Assembly (NCBI GenBank): GCA_043228905.1
Contig: JBHGNT010000015.1
Span: 18,166,001 to 18,230,000, forward strand
DNA: 64,000 nt
Source of the DNA: Azolla caroliniana
Taxonomy: Eukaryota; Plantae; Polypodiophyta
Direction: 5' to 3'
The position numbers and the translations under genes are program-made. The notes below the pieces were generated by a model. That model saw nothing but the letters and a program-made list of their open reading frames with translations, searched no databases and was not told the DNA's origin. This document shows, piece after piece, positions 1 to 60,352 of the stretch (within the stretch, counting starts at the first letter, position 1; each line of letters begins with the position of its first letter).

Positions 1-1062
1 AAGTCCGAACAAAATCTTCGACAAATTGTCGCATATGGGGCTACCAGAAGGATCCTTGTACTAAATCTAGTGTTTTAGTACTACCAAAATTCCCAAGTGT
101 GTATGTGCCATGACAGTTTTGGACTTCTTGAAGGCGACAAGTACCATTGGGAACATACAAGAGTTTCTTAAAGAATAGCAATCCATCATGACATTCGAAT
201 TGTCAATAGTCCATACCTGGTTGTTGTTCTATGAACAAGATGCTCGAGAGGGATCAATTTGTGTTAGAATGGCTTGAGCGAAAACATCTGTCTTCAAGTC
301 CTCACGTATGGTATCGATAACGTGGGAATCCAAGGGCATACCGAAGACCTGCGTTGCTTGCAGTCGTGCCGGTCCTAAGATTACTTGCTTTTGGTTATCG
401 AAAGCTGGCTCGCCGGGACGCGGTGCTAGATACGAACGCCGTGATAATGCATCTGCCTTCCCTTGTTACTTCCCCAGACGATATGTGATTTTGAAGTCGA
501 AACGAGTGAGGAATTGGGCCCACTGATCTTGACGTCGATTTAACACACGAGCATTCTGAAAGTAGGCAAGGTTTTTGTGATCATTGAATACGATGACTTG
601 ATGAGAAGACCCCTCTAGAAAATGCCTCCATTGAGTAAAAGAGTCCACTATTGCTAATAGCTCTTTATCGTGAATTTCATAGTTGATTTCCACGGCATCA
701 AACTTGTGTGAATGGAATGCCACAGGATGTAGCTTTTCATCATCGCCTTGTTGAGATAGAATGCTACCCAAGGTGAAATTCGACGCGTCTGCTTTAATGA
801 TGAATGGTTTTTCTGGATCAACATGAGCTAAAATAGGAGCTGATGTAAATGCCTTTTTAAGAATCTCAAAAGCAATGTCCGCTTCTTCAGATCAAACGAA
901 CGATTTTCCCTTCCTGGTAAGTTGTGTGAGAGGCAGAACAAGCTTTGAGTAATCCTATATGAACTTGCGGTATAAATTGACAAAGCCTAAAAAGCATTGC
1001 ACATCTTGCAATGAACGCGGAGTCTACCACTCTACCATCGTTTTGACCTTAGCTGGATCCAT
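1..1062 (-). mobile_element. Ty3/gypsy (chromovirus, Tcn1-like) pol fragment: RT connection, RNase H and start of integrase; decayed
   Basis: ORF 466..771 reads LHPVAFHSHKF..YEIHDKELLAIV..WRHFLEG..DHKNL (Gypsy RNase H). The reverse complement aligns with 22338..23400. Internal stops are present. Confidence 0.9.
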
Positions 1063-3959: not shown

Positions 3960-4362
3960 TATCTACTGTTTTCGTCTCTTCCGTCCAAAATCCCAACGAT
4001 TCCTTCCTCACTTTCACGTTACCTTCTATCAGAGCAACGGTATGCTTCTGGGCGAGCCACGCCCTGACACCATCGGTTAAATAACTATTATTGTTATAGT
4101 AGGAATGACAGTAGTAGTGGCTACATTTATAAATAGCCCATATATTGTACAAGTATAAATACACTTAAGGCAATCATATAGAATAAGAAGGTTGAATAGA
4201 ATAGGTGTGTGAGCCTCTGTTGTAGAGTGCGACAGATAAGAGAGAGTGTGTGAGCGTGAGAGAGCGGCAACAAAGTTCTGTGAACTTGCTAAGAACCCTA
4301 AGCGGGTTATCCTTGTGTGTATTAGAGAAGATTGTAATCCTTTTCTGTATTCTCTTGTGTAT

Positions 4363-4814
4363 TGTAAAGAATCGATGGTGATTCTTGTGTAGTAGAAGAG
4401 ATATGTGTTCTGTGTATGTGTGAAAGGAATTAGAGGAGAGATGAGAGAACACAAAATAGATAGAAAAAGGAATACTAGAGAAGAAGGTGTATATTTCACA
4501 AGTAGAATAAGATTTAAAAAATGTAGCATAATCAGGAGTCACAACCGGCATAGTATGAAGTATGAGGAGGGTGCTTTATATAGAGTCACCCTCTCTCTTC
4601 ATTAACTTTACAACAATCACTCTCTCTCTTGGGGAATGTGAAGAATCATAGTCATGGGGAATATGTAACTCATTAGTTATGTGTCATAGAATATGATTCT
4701 ATGACACATAGTTAATGTGTAAAGCGTAGTGGTGTGACTCTTGACCTTTGAGTAATCATGGATTCTCAAAAGGTGTGTTCATACGTTGCACTATGTTGAG
4801 CTTGATTCTCAACA
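4363..4814 (-). repeat. 3' LTR of the copia element (452 bp)
   Basis: TGTAAAG..CTCAACA ends; repeated at 13749-14014 and, inverted, at 41357-41802. Confidence 0.9.
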
Positions 4815-13426: not shown

Positions 13427-14014
13427 ACGTCTTCCGGGTCAGGTTGGTTTTCTTGTGCTCCCTTGATGTAACCCCAATAGCCTTGGCAGACAAGGTATTG
13501 GTGCATCTTGTACTCCCAAGATGCAAAGTTGTTTCACTCCAACTTCTCGCTAGGGAGAGCTCTCACCATTTGAGTATTCATTGTCGATTAAGCTTCCTTT
13601 CTTCTTTTCCTTCTCTCTCGAACATGAGCTATGTAGTGGTAGTACGAAAGCGATGAGCTGGTTCTTCTTGAACGTCGGCGTAGAGCACAACACACGATCA
13701 CGATGAGGTGAGTGGGCTAGATCGAGCTACCAAATTGCTTTGATACCATGTAAAGAATCGATGGTGATTCTTGTGTAGCGGAAGAGATGTGTGTTATGTG
13801 TATGTGTGAAAGGAATTAGAGGAGAGATGAGAGAACACAAGATAGATAGAAAAAGGAATACTCAAGAAGAAGGTGTATATTTCACAAGTAAATAAGAATT
13901 ACAAAATGTAGCATAATAAGGAGTCACAACCAACTTAGTATGAAGTATGAGGAGGATGCTTTATATAGAGTCGCCCTCTCTCTTCATTAACTTTACAACA
14001 ACCACTCTCACTCT

Positions 14015-18674: not shown

Positions 18675-20324
18675 CTTCTGTACGTGGACAACATGTTGAT
18701 CGTCGGACGGGACCAAGCCAAAATACGGATGCTGAAGAAGGCTCTCAACCGAACCTTCTCAATGAAAGACTTGGGTCCGGCAAGACAGATGTTGGGGATG
18801 CATATCATCTGGAACTGGTCAACGAAGCAATTGTGGCTGTCACAGGAGAAGTACGTGACAAAGGTGCTTCATCGGTTCAACATGTCAGATGTGAAACCTG
18901 TCGGATCGACACTTCCGGCAAACTGCTGGTTATCTGGTAAGCAAAGCCCGAAGTCGAAAGCAGAGAAGGCTGATATGATAAAGGTTCCATATGCCTCTGC
19001 CGTCGGGAGCCTAATGTACGCAATGGTGTGTACCCGATCGGATATAGGATACACAGTCGGAGTGGTGAGCCGGTTTATGGGCAATCCCGGCAAGGAGCAC
19101 TGGAACGCGGTCAAATGGATAATCCGGTATTTGAAGGGCACTTCAAATATGTGTCTCCGATTCGGCTCCGGAAAACCTCAACTTGACGGTTTCACCGATT
19201 CGGACATGTCGGCTGATGTGGATACTAGCCGGTCTACAACCAGGTATGTAATGACATATGCAGGGGGAGCTATTTCGTGGCAGTCGAGGCTACAGAAGAC
19301 GGTTGCATTGTCAACCACGGAGGCGGAGTACATGGCGGTTGTGGAAGCCAGCAAGGAAATATTATGGATGAAGGACTTCATCGAAGAGCTCGGTATCCGG
19401 CAAAATGAATACCGGCTCTATTGCGACAGTCAAAGTGCCATCACCGTGCTAAGAATGCGGCCTACCATTCCCGGACGAAGCATATCCAGCGAAGGTATCA
19501 CTGGATTAGAGAAAGAGTAGATGACCAGGAGTTCGCGCTGACGAAGATCCACACGGCCGAGAACGGGTCAGATATGCTGACCAAAGTGTTGATACCCGAC
19601 AAGTTGGATGCATGCCGAAAGCGGATCGGACTAGTAAGACACCCCATGCCAGAGTTAAGGGGGAGTTTTTTGGGAGACAGGTCCCTCCGGATGGGAAGGG
19701 AGAAGAATCTGGATGACGAGTACCCGGCTACGGAGAGCCAGATGGTGCAAACCCGGTGAGAACCAGATGAGGAGTACCCGGAAATGGAAGACCCGATGAG
19801 AACCGGATGGGAAGTACCCGGCAAGCGCCGGATGATGCAGGCCCGGTGAGGAGTGCTCACCGGATGAAGAGACATATTCGTAAATATGTTTCTAAGAGTC
19901 CATCGAGGCTAAATTTGTAAATAGCCGAAAAGTCATATTAGTATAAATATGACTTAGGGCAAACTTATTGTAGTAGTTGTTGTCATTCTTGTTGGTGCAA
20001 GAAGTGAGAGCGCGTAACAGTGTATAGAGTGAGAGAGAGAGAGAAAGAGACGAAGGTTTCGTATCTCTGTTGTAACCGCCAACTATGGCGAAGATAGCAA
20101 GCTCGAGGTCGTTGCCTCAGTGCTCCACCATTGTACATTCTTATATACTGATAGTTTGGAGTCTGTGGACTCCCGTGGTTTTTCCCTCTCACGGTTTTCC
20201 ACGTTAAACATCATGTGTACTCTTCTCGCCTTTGAGTCGTGTGTTTCATTTCCCGTTTTCTATGTATGATTCTAAGCTTGGTTGTGGCCGAGCGTTGCGC
20301 ATAGGGAGCGTGCAGTTCCTGTCA
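18675..20324 (+). mobile_element. 3' half of a Ty1/copia element (RT from LLYVDNM, RNase H, PPT, 3' LTR 19668-20324)
   Basis: ORFs 18642..19520 and 19421..19759 (VPYASAVGSLMYAM, LSTTEAEY, RTKHIQRRYHWIRE). PPT AAGGGGGAG near 19657-19665. The LTR matches the inverted solo LTR at 20798-21518. Confidence 0.9.
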
Positions 20325-20797
20325 AGATCTGTGCAGCCCATTAGTGGTTTCATTTCCTCTATGCAAGTTAGCAATGTGTTCTTAGCTCAAGTAATGGTTG
20401 ATACTAAAAGTACTCCTCCAGTACATGTCTTAGCACTCTTAGATTCCGGAGCCAACTCTTGCTTCATGGATAGGAATTTTGCCCAAGCTCATCAGATATC
20501 CCTAAAGAAACTCCCATGTCCAGCCTCTGTAGTAGTCATTGATTGTCGTCCCATTGCTTCTGGGAATATTATAGAAGAGTCAGAACATGTTAATATTGTC
20601 CTAGATAACTTAGCGTGTGTAGTATCATTTAATATAATTAGTATCCTAGAACATCCCATTGTTTTGGGATTACCATGGTTCGAATTGCATAACCCAGCCA
20701 TAGATTGGAGAACAAGAGAACTACGGTGTCGACAAACCCGAGGATCTACTCATAAGATTGCAACCATTTCGCTACATCAGTTGCGTGAGGAAGGACG

Positions 20798-21518
20798 TGA
20801 CAGAAACTAGTCGTTCCTTATACGCACCGCTCGGCCACAATCGAGCTTAGAATCATACACAGAAAACGGGAAATAAAACACACGACACAAAGGAGAGAAA
20901 AAGGTACACAGGATGTTTACATGGAAAACCCAAACTAGGGAAAAAACCACGGCAGCCCACAGGCTGCAAACTATCACTATGCTAGAATGTACAATAGTGA
21001 GTTCACGGAGGCAACGACCTCGTGCTCACGATCTTCGCCACAGGCGGCGATTACAATAGAGGCATCGACCTCTTCCTCTCGCTCTCTCTGTCTCTGTACA
21101 CAGTTACGCGCTCTAATCTCGCGCAGACAAGAATAACAACAACAATAACTATAAGTTTGCCCTAAGTCATATTTATACTAATATGACTTTTCGGCTATTT
21201 ACAAATATAGCCTTGATGGACTCTCAGAAACATATTTACGAATATGTCTCTTCATCCGGTGAGCATTCCTCACTGGGTCTGCACCATCCGGCTCTCCGTA
21301 GCCGGGTACTCCTCATCCGGTTCTCACCGGGCCTGCACCATCCGGCTCTCCGTAGCCGGGTACTCCTCATCCGGTTCTCACCGGGCCTGCACCATCCGGC
21401 TCTCCGTAGCCGGGTACTCCTCATCCGGTTCTCACCGGGTCTGCACCATCCGGCTCTCCGTAGCCGGGTACTCCTCTTCCAGTTTCTCTTTTCATCCGGA
21501 GGGCCCTGTCTCCCAACA
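20798..21518 (-). mobile_element. Solo copia LTR (721 bp) inserted in the chromovirus pol, TSD GGACG
   Basis: TGACA..CAACA ends with GGACG at 20793-97 and 21519-23. Excision restores LREEGR|KEEMFLF. Same family as 19668-20324. Confidence 0.93.
21275..21480. repeat. 54-bp tandem repeat, about 3.8 near-identical copies, in LTR U3
   Basis: GCACCATCCGGCTCTCCGTAGCC recurs at 21281, 21335, 21389 and 21443. Confidence 0.95.
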
Positions 21519-24500
21519 GGACGCAAGGAAGAAATGTTTCTCTTTGCAATATCAGTAAACCCCTCCAGTATCAATAAAGAGGAGTCCACCATTCAACTTC
21601 CAGAGAAGTATCGTCATTATGCCGATGTGTTCGATAAAGTACGAGCTAATACGCTTCCTCACCATCGACCGTATGATTGCCCCATCGATTTACAACCGGG
21701 AAAAGAGCCACCATGAGGACCGATCTACAATTTGTCACCAACCGAGCTAGAAGTCCTTCAAGCCTATATAGAGGAGAATTTGGCAAATGGTTTCATTCGA
21801 CTTTCGAAATCTCCAACTGGCGCACCCATTTTCTTCGTCAAGAAAAAGGATGGATCACTTCGTCTCGTCGTAGATTACCGTCGTTTGAATAAAGTCACCA
21901 TCAGGAATAGGTATGCACTTCCTCTTACCTCAAGTCTTTTAGAACGGATCAATCGAGCAAGGTTCTTCACAAAGATCGACTTACGAGGAGCATATAACCT
22001 CGTATGGATCCGACCAAGAGATGAATGGAAGACTGCGTTTCGCACCAGATATGGGCACTTCGAGTATATGGTCATGCCATTCGGCCGCACTAATGTGCCA
22101 ACAGTCTTCCAACACATGGCAAATGATATATTCCAAGATCTATTGGATGATTTTTTGATTATCTATTTGGATGATCTACTATTTTATTTGAAGACCCAAG
22201 AAGAGCATGATTCTCATGTACTATTAGTACTAAAACGACTTCGAGAACATGGTCTTTATGCAAAACTGGAAAAATGTAGTTTTGGGTGCAACCAAGTAGA
22301 ATTTTTGGGCTATGTCATTTCCTCAGAAGGCATCTCCATGGATCCATCTAAGGTCAAAACGGTGGTTGAGTGGCAGACTTCTCGTTCGTTGCGAGATGTG
22401 CAATGCTTTTTAGGATTTGCCAATTTTTACCGCAAGTTCATACAGGATTACTCAAAGCTTGTTCTGCCTCTCACACAACTTACCAGGAAGGGAAAATCGT
22501 TCATTTGGTCTGAAGAAGTGGACATTTCTTTCGAAAGTCTGAAGAAGGCATTTGCATCAGCTCCTATTTTAGTTCATGTTGATCCAGAAAAACCATTCAT
22601 CATTGAAGCAGACGCGTCGGATTTCGCCTTGGGTAGCATTCTATCTCAACAAGCCGATGATGAAAAGCTACATCCTGTGGCTTTCTATTCACGCAAGTTT
22701 GACACCGCGAAAATCATTTATGAAATTCATGATAAGGAGCTATTAGCAATAGTGGACTCTTTTATGCAATGGAGGCATTTTCTAGATGGGTCTTCTCATC
22801 AAGTCATTGTATTTAGTGATCACAAAAACCTTGCCTACTTTCAGAATGCTCGTGTGTTAAATCGATGTCAAGCTTGGTGGGCCCAATTCCTCACTCGTTT
22901 CTACTTCAAAATTACATATCGTCTGGGAAAGAAACAAGGGAAGGCAAATGCATTATCACGGCGTTCGTATCTAACACCGCGTCCCAGCGAGCCGGCTTTC
23001 AATAACCAAAAGCAAGTAATCTTGGGACCGGCACGACTGCAAGAAACGCAGGTCTTCGGTATGCCCTTGGATTCCCACGTTATCGATACCATACGTGAGG
23101 ACTTGAAGATAGATGTTTTCACTCAAGCCATTCTAGCACAAATTGATCCCTCTCGAGCATCTTGTTCACAGTCGCAACAACCAGGTACGGAATATCGACA
23201 CTTCGAATGTCATGATGGATTATTAATCTTTAAGAAACTCTTGTATGTTCCTAATGGTACTTGTCACCTTCAAGTAGTCCATAACTGTCATGACACATAT
23301 ACAGTTGAGCATTTTGGTAGTACTAAAACACTAGATTTAGTACAACGATCCTTCTAGTGGCCCCATATGCGACAATTTGTCAATGATTTTGTTCGGACTT
23401 GTGATTCATGTTGCAAAGCAAAAATGCCAAGGCATCATCCATATGGTTTATTAGAACCATTACCAATTCCAAGCAAGCCATGGCAATCCATTGCCCTAGA
23501 TTTAATCACAAATCTTCCTGTCTATAAGGGATTCGATGTGATCTTAAAAGTAGTAGATCGATATACAAAGACGACCTATTTCCTACCATTTACTAAGCAA
23601 ATCTCTAGTGAAGAAACCCCTGAAATTTTCATGCGTGAAGTATGTCGGCATCATGGCCTTCTCGATAGTATCATCAGTGACCGTGGACCCCAGTTCCTCT
23701 CGAAGTTCTGGAAGCACCTCTTTCTAATGCGTAAGGTCACTTGTAACCTTTCCTCCGGATACAACCCGCACACAGACGGCCAAGCAGAACGAACAAATCA
23801 AACGCTGGAGCAGTATCTTTGGTGCTTTTTAAGCTATCATCAAGATGACTCGGCGGATATTCTCCACTTTGCCGAATTTGCGTATAATAACTCTGTCCAC
23901 TCATCGACAAAGGTGACACTATTTTATGCTTACACGGGATGTCATCCCCGGTGGTGTGTATTTGAAACCCCAGAGTTACGTACAAATCCTTGTGCAGAGG
24001 ATCGTTTGGAGCGGCTACGTAAGATACAAGCGGATTTATCTACTCATCTACAAGAAGCTCAACAAACATGCAAGGTTTACGTGGATCGTCATCGGCTTCC
24101 ATCCATTTTTGACATTGGAGATCGGGTGTGGCTACTACGACGACACATCAAGACTAGTCGCCCGTGCGAGAAGTTGGATTACCGGCGATTAGGTCCTTTC
24201 CATATTATCGGAAAAATTAATGATGTCACTTTTCGTCTCGATCTACCTCCACAACTTCGGATACATCCAGTATTTCATAGTTCTCTCCTCGAACCCTATC
24301 AAGACAGCACCATCCCAGGTTGTATTAAACAACCTCCACCCCCGATCGAGCTCGAAGATGGACTTGAGTACGAGGTCGCCGCCATCCTCGATTCCAAGAT
24401 TGTTCACAACAAGCTCTACTATTTAGTCGATTGGCTAGGATATAGTCCCAACGAACATACTTGGGAACCAATAGAGAATGTGACCAATGCTCGTTCTCTT

Positions 24501-25044
24501 CTTGAAGACTTCCATCGTCAATATCCAGACAAACCGGGTCCTCAATCCAAAACGACTCGTGACACTTGTCGTTTGAAAATGGGGATAGTGTCATGATATG
24601 GCAACACTTGAACCCATGACCTTATGTTACATGGGTCGAGCTCTTGACCATTAGACTATATGTTGTAATACAAAAGATATTATTTTCATTTAGGTTTTAC
24701 TATAGAAAATTGATTTATATTCCAGATTTCTCTGGAACATTCTAGAAACTTCAGGAATACTCCTGAGAACACTATAAAAGGAGGCACAAGGCATTATTTC
24801 GAACCAAATCGGTTCAACACTAGTCTTATGCCTCCTTGCTACTATTGTATATTCCCTTAACATAATATATATCATTTGTTATCCTCATTCTCTCTCTCTC
24901 TCTCGATCTCTTTCACTCACTCACTCTCTCCTTCTCTCGAGAGTTCTACACCTTAGTACTAATCCTCATCTTTTAGTACTAATTCCTTCTCTGTTTTAGT
25001 ACTGTTCCTGACAGTACTTCTCTGTTTTAGTATTGCTCTTGACA

Positions 25045-26910: not shown

Positions 26911-26994
26911 ACACTAAATTATAACTCATTTTATTAGCATGGTTACAAGTACACCTCATATTTTTGTAAAACTTACCAAAATAATATAAGTCTT

Positions 26995-28915
26995 TGTCAA
27001 GATTCGAACTCTTGACATGACCATGTTATAATCGACTATTATGTGTTAACCACACACATCTAGCATATAATCATGTATATACTTCCTCATTGTAGGTTTT
27101 AGCTAGCATCATGTGGATAATTTCTCCCTTGTATTATTAACACTTGGCACATGCATGCGTACCTACTACCTACATGCTCTATTGTATCACATGCGTGCAA
27201 CAGGTATGCATGCCACTTAGTATAAATAGTTGAGTTCACCTTGAAGGAATTCAAGGTGAACAACACCAGTCATGGACATATCAATCTAGTATTCTCGTTT
27301 CGCCGATCCTCTCTCCTTGATCTTCATCTCTATCTTTATGCTCTTGTGTCATTCCATCATCGCTCCGTCGTAGTCTCATCATCCGTGCTCCGTCTTAGTC
27401 CACGCTTGGTGTGTCCGTGACAGTTTGTTCACCTTCCAACTAGAAGCATCACCTGTCTCCGTCGTCGCCCTTGCTTCTAGAGTTACCATCGTCACCGTAC
27501 CATCATCAACATCGCTTCATTGTCTCTAGTTTTTAGTTTCTCCTCATCATTGTCTCTATTTTTTAGTTTCTTTCCCATTCGTGTTCATGTTCTAGTTCCC
27601 GGTGAGGGCCGCACAAGGCCGCTCACTCCCGTTGGTGTTGGTGTTCCAGTTCCCGATGAGGGCCGCACAAGGCCACTCACTCCCGTTGGTGTTCGTGTTC
27701 TAGTTCCCGGTGAGGTCCGCACAAGGTTGCTCACTCTCGTTGGTGTTCGTGTTCCAGTTCCCGGTGAGGGCCGCATGGTCACTCACGCCCGTTCGTGTTC
27801 AAGTTCCTAGTGAGGGCCGCATGGTCGCTCACACACGTTCGTGTTCGAGTTCCCGATGAGGGCCGCATGGTCACTCACACCCGTTTGTATTCCTATTCCC
27901 GATGAGGGCCGCACATGGCCGCTCACTCTAGTTCATGTTCATGTTCCCGGTGAGGGACGCATGGTCGCTCACTCCCATTTGTGTTCCAGTCTCCGGTGAG
28001 GACCGACATGGTCGCTCATGCCCGTTGTTCATGTTCTAGTTCCTGGTGAGGACCGCGCATGGTCGATTACTCCCATTCGTGTTCTTGTTCCCAGTGAGGG
28101 CCACATGGTCACACACTCGTTCGTGTTCCATTTCTCAGTCAGGACAACATGGTTGCTCACGCTCGTTGGTGTTCATGTTCCAACTCTCAACGAGGACCGT
28201 TCCAGTTCCCGGCAAGGACCTCACATGGTTACTCATGCCCCTTGGTGTTCATGCTCCCCGTGAGGACCGCACATTGTCGCTCACACCCGTTGATATTTGT
28301 GTTCCAGTTCTAGGTGAGGACCACACATGGTCTCTCATGCCCGTTGGTGTTAAATACCTTGTCTTGTGGAAGGGTTACTCCTTGTCTAGGATTTACAAAA
28401 TACTTTGGAGGTGATCTAAGATTTTCATCAACAATATCCCCTTAAGCCAACAAACGATTTGGGAAGGCATCATTGAAGGGGGGATAATGTCAAGATTCGA
28501 ACTCTTGACATGACCATGTTATAATCGACTATTATGTGTTAACCACACACATCTAGCATATAATAATGTATATACTTCCTCATTGTAGGTTTTAGCTAGC
28601 ATCATGTGCATAATTTCTCCCTTGTATTATTAACACTTGGCACATGCATGCGTACCTACTACCTACATGCTCTATTGTATCACATGCGTGCAACAGGTAT
28701 GCATGCCACTTAGTATAAATAGTTGAGTTCACCTTGAAGGAATTCAAGGTGAACAACGCCAGTCATGGACATATCAATCTAGTATTCTCGTTTCGCCGAT
28801 CCTCTCTCCTTGATCTTCATCTCTATCTTTATGCTCTTGTGTCATTCCGTCATCGCTCCGTCGTAGTCTCATCATCTGTGCTCCGTCTTAGTCCACGCTT
28901 GGTGTGTCCGTGACA
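26995..28915 (+). mobile_element. Intact non-coding TRIM-like LTR element derived from a chromovirus, TSD GTCTT
   Basis: 428-bp LTRs at 26995-27422 and 28488-28915, about 5 differences by eye. TSD at 26990-94 and 28916-20. PPT GAAGGGGGGATAA before the 3' LTR. Internal degenerate 50-60-bp repeats. Chromodomain remnants YLVLWKGY and DFHQQYP at about 28350-28450. Confidence 0.93.
27575..28350. repeat. Degenerate tandem array (about 50-60-bp unit) inside the TRIM
   Basis: GTTCCCGGTGAGGGCCGCA..TGGTCGCTCAC..CCCGTT repeated more than 10 times; related repeats lie inverted at 41960-42245. Confidence 0.9.
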
Positions 28916-29084
28916 GTCTTTAACTGAGTGTTTTACATGTCCCACTTTAGTGAGATATTGAGCCATTTTTGAACGTTATTATGCCTACATTAACTTATCA
29001 ACACATCCAAACTTATTTGAATTTCTAATGTTCTCCACTCGGAGACCTATCATGTATTTTTATATTTGCAAATTCTAATCAAGT

Positions 29085-40975: not shown

Positions 40976-42557
40976 TGTCACGAACACACCAACCGCGAAC
41001 TACGACAAAGCACGGATGATGGAGCTAAGAGCATGGAACTTAAGAAGCTGGGAATGACACAAGAGCATGAAGACAGAGATGAAGAAGGAGACAAGATGGG
41101 ATGAAACAAGAATACTAGATTGATGTGTCAATGACTGGAGTTGAATCCCTTGAAAGGGATCAAGGAGGTTACAAGTATTTATACTGTGAGTCAAAGTACA
41201 TGCATTAGAATATTCGGGAGAATATTCTAGAACCCTCTAGAACCTTCTAGTTCTAGAACTTTCTAAAAACTCCTAGAACTTGAAATAGATAATCTACTAA
41301 TAATCTACTAAGATATATATAGCATGACTATATATTTGGACATGTTGGTTAGAACATGTTGAGAATCAAGCTCAACATAGTGCAACGTGTGAACACACCT
41401 TTGAGAATCTATGTGCACTCAAAGGTCAAGAGTCATACCACTCTCTACACATTTAACTATGTGTCATAGAATCATATTCTATGACACATAACTAATGAGT
41501 TACATATTCCCCATGACTATGAGTCTTCACATTCCCCAAGAGAGAGAGTGGTTGTTGTAAAGTTAATGAAGAGAGAGGGTGACTCTATATAAAGCACCCT
41601 CATACTTCATACTAAGTCGGTTGTGACTCCTTATTATGCTACATTTTGTAATTCTTATTCTACTTGTGAAATATACACCTTCTTCTTGAGTATTCCTTTT
41701 TCTATCTATCTTGTGTTCTCTCATCTCTCCTCTAATTCCTCTCACACATACACATAACACACATCTCTTCTGCTACACAAGAATCATACCCAATTCTTTA
41801 CAGAACACAACACTTGACTATATATAAGAGGTTAAGAGTTCAAATCTTGACATGACTGTTGTCATGTCTGTGACATTATCCTCCCCTTTATGGCCGCCTT
41901 TTCGAAAGCACAGTGTAGGGGTGAACAGAAAGTGGTGGGCATGAGAAACCATGTGTTGTGCTCACTAGAAACACGAACACCAACAGACATGAGTGACCAT
42001 GTGTGGTCCTCATCAGGAACATGAACGGGCAGTGACTGACCATGCGGTCCTCACCAAGAACTGGAACATGAACAGGAGTGAGCGACCACATAGACATTAT
42101 CCTCCCCTTTACGGATGCCTTTTCGAAAGCACGGTGTAGGGGTGAACAGAAAGTGGTGGGCATGAGAAACCATGTGTTGTGCTCACTAAAAACACGAACA
42201 CCAACGGACATGAGCGACCATGTGCGGTCCTCATCGGGAACATGATCGGGACCATCTGTCAATGACTAGAGTTGAATCCCTTGAAAGGGATCAAGGAGGT
42301 TACAAGTATTTATATACTGTGAGTCAAAGTACATGCATTAGAATATTCAGGAGAATATTCTAGAACCCTCTAGAACCTTCTAGTTCTAGAACTTTCTAAA
42401 AACTCCTAGAACTTGAAATAGATAATCTACTAATAATCTACTAAGATATATATAATATGACTATATATTTGGACGTGTTGGTTAGAACACAACACTTGAC
42501 TATATATAAGAGGTTAAGAGTTCAAACCTTGACATGATTGTTGTCATCTCTGTGACA
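40976..42557 (-). mobile_element. TRIM-like element related to 26995-28915, TSD GTACT; 5' LTR partly deleted; carries a nested solo LTR
   Basis: TSD at 40971-75 and 42558-62. 3' LTR 40976-41875 with PPT at 41876-41888. 5' LTR remnant at about 42257-42557. Internal repeats are related to the 27575 array and the PPT region is duplicated near 42095. Confidence 0.88.
41357..41802 (+). mobile_element. Solo copia LTR (446 bp), TSD GAACA
   Basis: Inverse of 4363-4814. GAACA at 41352-56 and 41803-07. Confidence 0.93.
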
Positions 42558-56693: not shown

Positions 56694-57521
56694 ATGATGG
56701 CCGGGCGGCTTCTGCAGTTCCATCCTTCTTCCTCCTCCTCCTCCTCCGCGGAAGCTCACAATTCCGCCGCCGCTTTATCTAGCTACGCCGCCGCCATTCA
56801 ACTCGCCGCCGCCGCCGCCCACCATCGCCAAGCCCCGCCTGATCATCATTACCGGAGCGGCATCTCCTCTGCTTTCTCTGTCATCGGTAATCCCGGCACC
56901 GCCGGAGGCGGCGACGATTTCTCGGCGGCTCAGCTGCTGGCCGGACCTTCCGCCGCCGACGACGCCGCCGCCCGACCGGCGGCGCCGGTAGTATCACGGG
57001 CAGCCGCCAGTCGACGAGGGAAGAAGCGCCAGAACAAGCCGCCGCAGCGAGGCCTCGGCGTGGCGCAGCTCGAGAAGATTCGGATCGAAGAGCAGAGGAG
57101 AGCTTCCGCCGCCGCTCTTCATCACCTCAATGCCCGAAGCAGCGGCGGCGGCGGCGGCGGAGCTTCACCTCTGTTAATCAATCAATCGCCTCCTCCTCTG
57201 CTCCCTCCTCCCATGTACACTAATTATCATCCTAATCCTAATCCTAATCCTAATCCTCATCCTAATTTTAAGCATCAACACAATCCTAGAGATAATGACC
57301 CCGCCCATCGCAGCCCTAATGCTGCTGCAGTGGACATGATTAACGCTAATCCTAATACCAGCATTATTAATCCAGTCTGGCTTTCCGCATCCAAATTATT
57401 TATTGAAGGCGCCAGCGGCAGCAGAGCGCATGCTAATAAGTCCGACGATGGAACTGATATAATTAATCCCGATGGCAGTTATATGAAATTGCTCGGCTTC
57501 CCGCGTCCAGATCTAAGCCTG
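56694..57521 (+). CDS. SPL/NZZ-like: SPEAR gene exon 1 (basic region and SPL motif)
   Basis: PQRGLGVAQLEKIRIEEQ; donor CTG|GTAAGG at 57522. Confidence 0.9.
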
Positions 57522-60352
57522 GTAAGGGCTTAATTACATCAGTTTTAACCTAATCAAATCTCTTCCCTTAATCAATGAATTTCTTCTTGTCTGTTTTTTG
57601 GGATTATGCAGGGGATGCATCTAAGGAGTGGAGCTAAGTATAATGATAATAACGATCATAATCATTATCATATCTCAGCTACCATGCCATGCCCATCATC
57701 GACGGCGGCAGCAGCAGAGCTGCCGCTTCAAGAGCCGATGATGGAGCTCTCTTCTTTCCAAAGATTCTCGCGCCGCGGGGGGGCGGCGCCGAGATTAATC
57801 AGCGAGTATAATCATAACTCAACCGCGAGCAGAGTGTCGGAGATGAAACGGCCATGGCCGGCAACGATGGTAGAGGCGGAGGCGGACATCAGAGCTGCTG
57901 CTACTACTGCCATTACTGCCAGTAACAGCCGCCGGAAGGTCTGCTATGGCGACCCCCCTGCTATATCCAGCGGCGAAGACAGGTAATAATTCTAAGCCTG
58001 ACCCTAACCCTACCCTAATAGTAATTATAAGGTTCGTAAAGCGAAGCTGCGTGATTCCATAACCGCTAAACCCTAATGTGACATACAACGCTAGTAGTCA
58101 CATTATCCACACGGTCCGAATAATGGAGATCTTATATACTAATCATAGCGATCGAAAACCCTAACATAAGCCACAGGTTTAGAAAAGCCATCCTTAATTC
58201 AACTCTTAACCCTATCGGAACCTTAATTCCATTTTTAGTTAATTCTACACTGCTCGAATAATGTCCGAGACCTTATACTAATCACAGGGATTGAAAACCC
58301 TAACATAAGCCACAGGGTTAGAAAAAACCATCCTCAATCCAACTCTAACCCTGTCGGCAAAGCTTAATTCCATTTTTAGTTAATTCTTACCCTAACCCCA
58401 ACCCTAACCCTAACTCTAACCCCAACCCTCACCCTAACCCTAACCCTAAACACCCTAACCCAATCCTAACCTAGACCCTAAACCCTAACCGAAACCGTAA
58501 CCCTAACGCTAACGCTAATGCTAACCGAAAACGAAACCCTAACGCTAGCACTAATGCGAACCGTAACCGTAACCCTAGGCATGATTAATTCGTCTCCCTG
58601 AGCATGAAGATCGAACTAGATTTTATTTAGTAGTCTTAAACCCTAACTTTTGGTTGTGTTAGGAACATCGCTGTGGGGTGCGAGCTCACGCTGAGGCCGC
58701 CGGGGGGAGGCGGCGGAGGAGGAGGAGGAGCAGGGGAAGCTGCCGACGAACCGTTAAGCGTGGAGGAGCCGGTGGCGGAGCCGTGGAGGCTAACGCTCCG
58801 CCACGGTTGTGGGCAACCGGCCGCCGTCACCGGCGCCGCCGGTTTCCCGGAGACGGCCACCGTCTCCCGGTATCCCAGCGGTTTCCTGTCTTTGGCGGTT
58901 GCGGGCGGCGGCGGCGGCGGCGAAAATGCCAGCTGGGCCAAGGCCGTACAGTACCTCTCCACCCCCTCCCCTGTTTCCGCCACCACCACCAAGAGCAGCG
59001 CCACCGGAGGGCCCGATCAAATCTCCACCGTACGTTCTCTCCGATTTTGTTTTGCCTTTTTCTAAAACAAATAATTTTTCGCATAATTCGCACATATCTT
59101 TAAAAAGCGACAGAAACAAAATTTAAAAGCAAAAATATAAGCAAATTTCGATCTTGGATAAATAAACCAACTACCAAATAAATAAATAAATAACGTAAAT
59201 AAACAATCAAATTGTATACAATTAAAATCAGGAAATAAACTAGCAAATATTATTCAAGAAAATAAATAGACAAGCAAACAATATTCAAATAAGTAAGCAA
59301 ATAATACTCAAATAATTAAATATATAACGAACAATATGTACAGTATTCAAATAAATAAATACCTAAAATAAATAAATAAACACCCAGAAAATAAATTGAC
59401 AAATACGCTTTATATGGGAGGCCAGAAATTAGGGTTTTATAATATTTCACAAGTGTTCCCTTGTCTCTTTGAATAATAAATCTCACTCTTTTTTGCTTCG
59501 TTTGTTTTTTTTTGTTCACTAAAAAGAGGCGACTTATCTAATATTTCACACTTTGTAGCCTTGCCTTATCTACTCTTCTCTTTTTGTTCCCACAATTTCC
59601 TAGTGTCCCCACACCTTGTCTCCTACTTACTACCCGCCCTAGTCTAGTATAAACAAACACTTACAAAAGCATTTGCTCTTCGCTCGCTCGAACACTCCTT
59701 GTTGTTGGTACTTGCCCCCCCCCCTCTTCCCTAGGCACTTACATGTACAAAACACTATGCCATCCAATTGCCTGTTCTTCATGTGATATGATCGTCTTCT
59801 CATGATTGGTTCACCATGTTGGGTAGGTTTGTGTCCATACTTACACAACAGCGAAGATGTACGTACCATTGGTTCCAATCTGGTTAGGCTGGTAAATCAT
59901 ATACATAAATACATATATGTATAGCTTTTAGCTCTCACATATGTGTACATTATCGATCATGCCATGGATATAACGTTGTATTGGGTCGATGATACATTGT
60001 ACTTTACAACATATCATGTCATATCACATCCTTGTGATTGACCCTTGGATTATTATGTCGATCAAAAGTATGATGTTGTGCACTTATTCTATGGTCTCTT
60101 TATTTTCTTTTATGTCTTTAGGGTTCGATTTGCTTCTTCTTCTTTTTTGTTGTAAGTTGCGTGACGTCTTTTTGGCGTGCAAATCTCATTGTGCCATCAT
60201 TTTTTTTGGGTCTTTTTTTGTGCCAGGATGATTATGTTTCGACGTCTATGTCGAGCCATACCAACAACTTCGACGGCCCAGAGAGTCAACAGATCTTCCA
60301 TACTAAGATTATGCATTCTAAGACCCCCTTGGATCTCTCCCTCAAACTTTGA
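56694..60352 (+). CDS. SPL/NZZ-like: SPOROCYTELESS/NOZZLE-like (SPEAR family) EAR-motif transcriptional repressor; join(56694..57521,57612..57982,58663..59029,60227..60352), about 563 aa
   Basis: SPL motif KKRQNKPPQRGLGVAQLEKIRIEEQ and C-terminal EAR motif LDLSLKL*. All three GT..AG introns are phase-consistent (0, 2, 0) and the CDS totals 1692 nt. The start codon is less certain. Confidence 0.9.
57612..57982 (+). CDS. SPL/NZZ-like: SPEAR gene exon 2
   Basis: Acceptor TGCAG|GGG and donor AG|GTAATA; ELSSFQ and KRPWP motifs; GC-rich. Confidence 0.82.
58110..58385. repeat. Tandem duplication of about 140 bp in intron 2
   Basis: CGAATAATG..TACTAATCA..GAAAACCCTAACATAAGCCACAGG..CTTAATTCCATTTTTAGTTAATTCT occurs twice. 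Confidence 0.88.
58389..58578. repeat. Interstitial telomere-like (CCCTAA)n array, degenerate
   Basis: About 30 hexamer units of CCCTAA and variants (CCCCAA, CGCTAA, CCGTAA, CCGAAA). Confidence 0.9.
58663..59029 (+). CDS. SPL/NZZ-like: SPEAR gene exon 3
   Basis: Acceptor GTTAG|G keeps frame into GCELTLRPP..GFLSLAV; donor ACC|GTACGT. Confidence 0.78.
60227..60352 (+). CDS. SPL/NZZ-like: SPEAR gene exon 4 (EAR motif)
   Basis: T-rich tract, CCAG|GAT acceptor, ends TPLDLSLKL-TGA. Confidence 0.85.
   Translation, partial: DDYVSTSMSSHTNNFDGPESQQIFHTKIMHSKTPLDLSLKL

What the first reader, a model, noticed from the sequence alone, without database searches (positions are those of the whole stretch)
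27221..27435. TRIM with an exact 11-nt self-priming PBS (Tf1-like mechanism)
Seen: there is no TGG-type tRNA PBS after the 5' LTR. Instead TTGTTCACCTT (27425-35) is the perfect reverse complement of AAGGTGAACAA (27253-63), which begins 32 nt after TATAAATA (27221), where transcription should start. Established: fission-yeast Tf1 primes reverse transcription with the first 11 nt of its own mRNA, and self-priming is proposed for related chromoviruses. Inference: this young non-coding element is a self-primed parasite mobilised by a Tcn1-like helper.
Basis: partly seen in the sequence, partly recalled or inferred. Interest (0 to 1): 0.72.

Follow-up and report, generated by a model that had tools for sequence, protein, structure and literature searches.

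The report
Self-priming non-coding plant LTR retrotransposon
This is an intact, gene-less 1.9-kb jumping element of a land plant whose primer site matches its own terminal repeat instead of a tRNA end; a sister subfamily has changed four letters on both sides and kept the match, so the element likely starts copying itself with its own RNA, a trick known from yeast Tf1 and predicted for moss relatives.

Summary
Observation confirmed. The element spans 26995-28915, with 428-bp LTRs (5 differences), a GTCTT target-site duplication, a polypurine tract and no coding domain. The primer site 27425-35 is the exact reverse complement of 27253-63, 32 nt after a TATA box; 0 of 5000 shuffles reached 10 nt.

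New here: the family has two main primer alleles and two primer-site alleles that differ at the same four positions and are each other's exact complements. A flanking 16-bp R:U5 helix and a weak 6-bp helix fit the Tf1 'pretzel'. A U3 hairpin would lock the primer copy in the 3' LTR. A Tf1/sushi-type chromovirus in the window has similar U3/R sequence, so it marks the likely helper lineage.

Caveats: no TSS or cDNA data, no host tRNA set, and no helper 5' LTR. Copy-by-copy linkage is 9 of 13 concordant (p=0.22); most discordant contigs look like assembly mosaics. At 1.9 kb it is not a classical TRIM.

Self-priming is already predicted for 83% of plant Tcn1 elements, and this scan noted similar mini-elements in other, mostly fungal, genomes. 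It is a well-supported variant of known biology.

The parts
26990..26994 (+). Target-site duplication, left copy (GTCTT)
26995..27422 (+). 5' LTR, 428 bp, TGTCA...TGACA
   Evidence: 5 differences from the 3' LTR
27221..27228 (+). TATA box; 32 nt before the primer start in 37 of 49 family LTR rows
27234..27261 (+). 12-bp U3/R hairpin whose 3' arm contains primer nt 1-9; predicted to lock the primer when U3 is transcribed
27253..27263 (+). Predicted self-primer (first 11 nt of R), allele A; starts at a C|A step
   Evidence: TSS inferred
27269..27284 (+). R arm of a 16-bp R:U5 helix
27285..27290 (+). R arm of a weak 6-bp third duplex (would be a pseudoknot)
   Evidence: no compensatory change
27406..27421 (+). 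U5 arm of the 16-bp helix, just upstream of the primer site
27425..27435 (+). Primer-binding site, allele A, 2 nt after the LTR; no TGG
27439..27444 (+). Downstream arm of the weak third duplex
27573..28351 (+). Internal array of degenerate 46-54-nt tandem repeats; no coding domain
28475..28487 (+). Polypurine tract with short spacer, similar to that of the window's chromovirus
28488..28915 (+). 3' LTR (its U3/R hairpin is at 28727-28754)
28916..28920 (+). Target-site duplication, right copy (GTCTT)
40976..42557 (-). Second, decayed family copy with primer allele B; its 5' LTR lost U5 and the primer site; another repeat is inserted in its 3' LTR
20324..25044 (+). Broken Tf1/sushi-type chromovirus (PR, RT, RH, IN, chromodomain; 3' LTR 24589-25044; no 5' LTR); candidate helper lineage, not shown to be the helper

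Best explanation
This is an intact, recently inserted, non-coding LTR retrotransposon of a high-copy plant family that likely primes its own reverse transcription the way Tf1 does and likely borrows its proteins from a Tcn1 (Tf1/sushi) chromovirus. Shown: LTRs, TSD, PPT, no coding domain, the 11-nt match, two mutually complementary primer/primer-site allele pairs, and the pairing potential of the flanking helices. Inferred: Pol II starts about 32 nt after the TATA box, at or near 27253. The first 11 nt then fold back onto 27425-35, held by the adjacent 16-bp R:U5 helix. Helper RNase H would cut after nt 11 and helper RT would extend the fragment. In the 3' LTR, transcribed U3 would close a 12-bp hairpin over the primer copy, so only the 5' copy is free. 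Tf1 cDNA retains a copy of its primer as the new primer site (PMC11042837, passages), so a changed primer could rewrite the site in one round. That would explain the four-letter swap on both sides.
For: Exact 11-nt match, with 0 of 5000 shuffles reaching 10 nt. The window's second copy has primer allele B. The matching primer-site allele appears as edits at 27428-27431 in 4 of 4 DNA runs, in 3 of 4 further runs and in full in metagenome loci. Only these two site alleles, plus one decayed B, were seen among 13 non-redundant junctions. Matched duplexes are -14.1 and -14.4 kcal/mol and crossed ones about -4. In 8 selected concordant rows, 4 of 11 primer pairs change on both sides and 96% of cells pair, against 30-42% when slid. 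The R:U5 helix pairs in 90% of cells over 31 distinct LTRs, against 24-40% slid. Primer A and site A lie on single contigs with different, shorter U5 regions (records 9 and 18). The window chromovirus has fungal and vertebrate elements as named best hits and an aromatic-cage-type chromodomain (motif recalled). Its U3/R start aligns to B-type LTRs at z 4.5-6.7, against -1.7 to 3.3 for three control repeats.
Against: No TSS, cleavage or cDNA evidence. Linkage per contig is not significant: 9 of 13 concordant (Fisher p=0.22), or 11 of 16 (p=0.16). One contig (X19 record 16) seems to join a whole A-type LTR to site B. The four double-sided changes are probably a single event. The R arm of helix 2 was fixed by the search pattern, and the U5 end is also constrained as the integrase end. 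The third duplex has no compensatory change and is broken in 2 of 8 rows. One control repeat (z 3.3) scored as high as this A-type copy (z 3.1) against the chromovirus LTR. No autonomous element with this primer site was recovered.
Confidence: 0.78

Rival explanations
1. The R:primer-site pairing is a structural (packaging, dimerisation or leader) stem, and reverse transcription is primed by a host tRNA half or another small RNA.
For: Half-tRNA priming exists in plants (PMC6317226, supplement MOESM5). No host tRNA set was available: no genome is held and ARAGORN found 0 tRNA genes in the window.
Against: No TGG. Both site alleles would each need their own tRNA fragment while also matching their own R start. 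In that survey half-tRNA priming is confined to Ty1/copia lineages, whereas LTR and PPT here resemble the window's gypsy chromovirus.
Confidence: 0.08
2. The complementarity is a by-product of local template switching that built inverted repeats (the U3 hairpin and a copy at the primer site), and has no priming role.
For: Allele A sits in a perfect 28-nt near-palindrome at 27234-27261. The LTR also begins with an inverted repeat, so the family is prone to such copies.
Against: Allele B has only a weak U3 hairpin (about -8 against -18.6 kcal/mol) yet the same exact 11-nt match at the same place. The site lies 160-240 nt from the primer, 2 nt behind the LTR, where a primer must bind.
Confidence: 0.05
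3. The element uses an R-derived primer, but largely in trans (from a co-packaged RNA), or is mobilised by a helper other than Tcn1, such as a TAR-type copia.
For: Discordant primer/site contigs (4 of 13; record 16). TAR copia elements are also predicted to self-prime (89%). Many non-autonomous plant families lack a recognisable partner (10.64898/2026.03.01.708851, passages).
Against: Discordant contigs show signs of mosaic assembly. L028's own 3' U3 is B-type and its primer lies 40 nt from the contig end. L001 has a B-type 5' U3 and an A-type 3' end. High-coverage 'solo' LTRs lack matching TSDs. LTR similarity points to the chromovirus.
Confidence: 0.09

Closest known systems
Tf1/Tf2 of Schizosaccharomyces pombe and the Tf1/sushi group (Tj1, Tosmo1-3, Tcry1)
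   Same: 11-nt complement between the R start and a site just behind the 5' LTR (PMC7175516, passages). Pairing potential for the three-duplex 'pretzel' described in 10.1101/2022.12.06.519325 (passages).
   Different: No gag-pol; plant host; cleavage and priming not shown here. A U3 hairpin over the primer was not mentioned in the passages I read; Levin's primary papers were not held.
Plant Tcn1 chromoviruses (mosses, clubmosses)
   Same: Self-priming predicted for 83% of 1500 elements, 5-bp TSD in 100% (PMC6317226, supplement MOESM5). A related element with similar LTR ends, PPT and U3/R start lies in this window.
   Different: Tcn1 elements average 6.4 kb and are coding; this one is 1.9 kb and non-coding. 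The published prediction is a blastn match of 10 nt or more, without covariation in the passages read. Novikova et al. found no self-priming sign in SM-Tcn1 (PMC2864245, passages).
TRIMs, including Cassandra and Helenus
   Same: Non-coding, LTR-site-PPT-LTR layout, 5-bp TSD, high copy number.
   Different: Classical TRIMs are under 1 kb with 100-250-bp repeats and a tRNA-complementary site (PMC6934838, passages). Helenus uses tRNA primers and its tRNA-like LTR part does not match its site (PMC10886601, abstract and parts 2-3 of the text).
TAR-lineage Ty1/copia (Houba, Osr-1)
   Same: Plant elements predicted to self-prime (89%).
   Different: Copia superfamily and coding; no similarity to them was tested here.

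Membership tests
LTR retrotransposon, non-autonomous | Two TG...CA LTRs, 5-bp TSD, PPT | tested here: met
LTR retrotransposon, non-autonomous | No gag/pol coding | tested here: met
   Longest internal stop-to-stop frame is 124 aa, with no Pfam match
LTR retrotransposon, non-autonomous | Multiple dispersed copies | tested here: met
   Second copy in the window; 52 loci with varied flanks; 1195-2465 contigs laid per DNA run
TRIM (classical) | Total length under 1 kb, repeats 100-250 bp | tested here: not met
   1921 bp, 428-bp LTRs; definition
TRIM (classical) | Primer site complementary to a tRNA 3' end | tested here: not met
   No TGG after the LTR; internal tRNA fragments not tested
Tf1-type self-priming elements | Primer site complementary to about 11 nt in the element's own LTR | tested here: met
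Tf1-type self-priming elements | Primer and site change together between relatives | tested here: met
   Two exact complementary allele pairs; per-contig linkage itself not significant
Tf1-type self-priming elements | Duplex between R and the U5 sequence just upstream of the site | tested here: met
   16 bp; one double-sided change; R arm biased by the search pattern
Tf1-type self-priming elements | Third duplex with the sequence just downstream of the site | tested here: inconclusive
   6 bp, intact in 6 of 8 rows, no compensatory change
Tf1-type self-priming elements | Primer is the 5' end of the transcript | not testable with these tools
   Only contigs were available; TATA spacing and the C|A step fit
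Tf1-type self-priming elements | RNase H cleavage after nt 11 and extension by RT | not testable with these tools
   Needs cDNA or particle biochemistry
Tcn1 chromovirus derivative | LTR or primer site shared with an autonomous Tcn1 element | tested here: inconclusive
   U3/R similarity z 4.5-6.7 for B-type and 3.1 for this copy; helper 5' LTR not found; the chromovirus was placed by best hits, not by a tree with Tcn1 references
Helenus (TRIMp3) | tRNA-derived A/B-box promoter in the LTR | tested here: inconclusive
   Only an antisense tRNA-like remnant: one Rfam tRNA match, 21.4 bits (cut-off 29), in 1 of 22 loci; none in this copy

The most novel reading that the evidence does not exclude
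A plant family of non-coding Tcn1 parasites switches primer identity in single steps: the retained primer copy rewrites the primer site, and a U3 hairpin locks every primer copy except the one at a correctly started 5' end. Primer alleles would then act as self-made barcodes that partly isolate subfamilies, with the start site as an on/off switch for mobility.
Probability: 0.2. Interest if true: 0.62.

Novelty: new variant of a known kind. Interest (0 to 1): 0.4.

Why it matters
Self-priming in plants rests, in the papers I could read, on a blastn complementarity rule. This family supplies a natural compensatory swap plus conserved Tf1-like helices, which is stronger evidence and gives ready allele pairs for a test. 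It also shows a blind spot: pipelines that require a tRNA primer site (as in the sugar-beet TRIM survey) would miss such elements. Four searches returned no paper describing a self-priming non-autonomous plant element (listings and selected passages only, open-access library). The mechanism itself is known and expected for a Tcn1 derivative.

Tried and rejected
- No whole genome is held, so intact copies and host tRNAs could not be counted.
- No RNA holder was listed. The runs guessed to be RNA are contigs and cannot show a start, so there is no statement on expression.
- I first read the B-primer/A-U5 junctions as a footprint of strand transfer at nt 12. I dropped this: a B-primer subfamily natively carries an R start nearly identical to A's for about 90 nt, so assembly mosaics or ordinary recombination in R explain the junctions.
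- A shared 5-mer flank between L044 and L035 did not prove to be one target site.
- Helper searches: viral contigs gave no RT relative and no match to one primer-site pattern; 5 matches to a second pattern had no further similarity. Genome contigs gave one distant RT locus, L058, not analysed beyond a self-comparison.
- Rfam gave nothing significant on the element.
- Host group: the NOZZLE-like protein gave one unnamed hit and the Atlas did not hold it, so 'non-seed plant' is inferred only from the chromovirus type.
- PMC7466625 (passages) and PMC4600332 (passages) added nothing on non-autonomous elements.

Full report
Observation. The coordinates are right. The 5' LTR runs 26995-27422 and the 3' LTR 28488-28915, both TGTCA...TGACA, with 5 differences in 428 bp. 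That is 1.2%, or roughly 0.45-0.65 Myr with recalled plant rates. GTCTT flanks both ends and a purine tract precedes the 3' LTR. The 1065-bp interior is mostly a degenerate 46-54-nt tandem array; its longest stop-to-stop frame is 124 aa and has no Pfam match. Two bases after the LTR, TTGTTCACCTT is the exact complement of AAGGTGAACAA at 27253-63. None of 5000 LTR shuffles gave more than 9 nt; 10 of 4825 random window positions gave 11 or more.

Family. A decayed second copy lies at about 40976-42557 on the minus strand. It has AAGGGATTCAA (allele B) where this copy has allele A, and it has lost its primer site. Allele B predicts the site TTGAATCCCTT. Contigs of 4 of 4 DNA runs, from four species labels, show the substitution, insertion and deletion at 27428-27431 that turn site A into this site. 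Three of 4 further runs show it as edits or loose ends. A metagenome scan with a pattern from R, outside both 11-mers, gave 52 loci. Among 49 LTR rows, 31 carry allele B exactly, 7 carry allele A, and 11 are B-like variants or a false anchor. In 37 of the 49 the TATA box is exactly 32 nt upstream (6 had none, 6 another spacing), and 41 of 50 rows start at a C|A step. These rows are homologues, not independent trials. The chance that a second site allele matches the second primer allele is about 1 in 650 if the change is one 4-nt block.

Linkage, told in full. After dropping overlapping windows of the same contigs (L008-L010, L038), 13 junctions link a primer and a site. Concordant: window, L004a, L007a (A/A); L004b, L021, L033a, L037a, L045 (B/B); and L023 (decayed B/B, one mismatch and two G-U). 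Discordant: L001, L007b, L037b (B/A) and L028 (A/B). One search adds two A/A contigs with different, shorter U5 regions and, by my reading of piece lengths and loose ends, one contig with an A-type LTR and site B. Fisher p is 0.22 and 0.16, so linkage is not established by these short-read contigs.

Several discordant contigs look mosaic. A B-primer subfamily shares nearly the whole first 90 nt of R with A. L028's primer sits 40 nt from the contig end, its own 3' U3 is B-type, and its R/U5 is joined to a B-type U3 in L016. L001 has unlike U3s at its two ends. High-coverage 'solo' LTRs lack matching TSDs. The same caution applies to concordant high-coverage contigs. Among the window copy and the four contigs under 3x coverage, 4 of 5 are concordant. 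Real recombinants are also expected.

Structure. RNA starting at 27253 folds into the 11-bp primer duplex stacked on a 16-bp helix between R (27269-84) and the U5 end (27406-21): -44.8 kcal/mol, z -3.3. That helix pairs in 90% of cells over 31 distinct LTRs, against 24-40% when slid over all 47 rows, but its R arm was fixed by my search pattern. On 8 concordant rows chosen by me, 4 of 11 primer pairs and 1 of 16 helix-2 pairs change on both sides, and a 6-bp third duplex shows none. This matches the Tf1 'pretzel' as described in 10.1101/2022.12.06.519325 (passages); the third duplex is weak.

The U3 hairpin. A 12-bp hairpin at 27234-61 covers primer nt 1-9. With U3 present it wins: primer:site pairing is 0.01 for a start at 27234, 0.95 for 27253, and 0.7 or more for starts from 27238 to 27256; the hairpin probability in the 3' LTR is at least 0.9. 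B-type LTRs have a weaker hairpin (about -8 kcal/mol), and one related contig appears to keep the stem with another loop. A locking role is inference.

Helper. The window holds a broken chromovirus at about 20324-25044. Its named best hits are mostly amphibian, fish, lizard and fungal elements, and its chromodomain has the aromatic residues typical of Tcn1 (motif recalled). This fits the Tf1/sushi group, whose plant branch is Tcn1 (PMC6317226, passages). It shares TGTCA...TGACA ends and a similar PPT and spacer. Its first 250 LTR bases align to five B-type LTRs at z 4.5-6.7, to this copy at 3.1, and to three control repeats at 3.3, -1.7 and 0.8. Its 5' LTR is missing, so its primer site is unknown, and no autonomous partner was found.

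Comparison with what is known. Tf1 uses its first 11 bases, cut by RNase H (PMC7175516, passages). TSS choice controls Tf2 mobility (PMC5341516, passages). About half of Tf1 cDNA keeps a copy of the primer (PMC11042837, passages). In plants, self-priming is predicted for 83% of 1500 Tcn1 and 89% of 203 TAR elements (PMC6317226, supplement MOESM5). The element fails the classical TRIM size and tRNA-site criteria and is a TRIM only in the broad usage of 10.64898/2026.03.01.708851 (Introduction). Searches showed no paper on a self-priming non-autonomous plant element; subscription papers and Levin's originals were not available. This scan noted similar elements in other, mostly fungal, genomes (unchecked AI notes) and none sharing this sequence. 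One note on this genome guesses a moss host, which I did not test.

Verdict. A real, young, non-coding LTR element that works like Tf1 with about 0.78 confidence; a likely Tcn1 derivative; not a classical TRIM. New variant of a known kind, interest 0.4.

Noticed in passing
window 26995-27065 and 24589-24665 (minus strand); L033:2017-2087: The U3 start reads antisense like a decayed tRNA (D-loop-like and T-loop-like words) in 23 aligned family segments and more loosely in the chromovirus LTR. Rfam tRNA matched once, 21.4 bits, E 3.2, below the cut-off of 29; no match in 12 further loci or in the window copies.
   Followed up: partly
L004, L007-L010, L033, L037-L038: Contigs show PPT-LTR-primer-site junctions, as in tandem arrays sharing one LTR. 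These may be assembly loops, or real tandems like those Tf1 forms by recombination (PMC11042837, passages).
   Followed up: partly
X19 record 18 and X20 record 22: Contigs that share primer allele A or its U3 but continue with a different U5 or internal sequence, one of them 2.4 kb long: possible further families or the autonomous partner. The sequence was not retrievable.
   Followed up: no
window 56694-57975: SPOROCYTELESS/NOZZLE-like plant gene (weak Pfam NOZZLE match, E 5e-5); marks the host as a land plant.
   Followed up: partly
window 1-1062 (minus) and 22338-23400: A second fragment of the same chromovirus, 92% identical.
   Followed up: no
window 19700-21500: Two inverted copies of a copia-type LTR about 470 nt apart; one interrupts the chromovirus between protease and RT.
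   Followed up: no
window 4355-4814, 13749-14014, 41357-41810: Three copies of another LTR-like repeat (92-94% identical); one is inserted in the 3' LTR of the second family copy.
   Followed up: no
L015:1433-1497: A stretch 82% like the chromovirus U5 end lies upstream of a family-type PPT, a possible chimera between helper lineage and parasite.
   Followed up: partly
window 58380-58580: Degenerate telomere-like CCCTAA repeats next to the NOZZLE-like gene.
   Followed up: no
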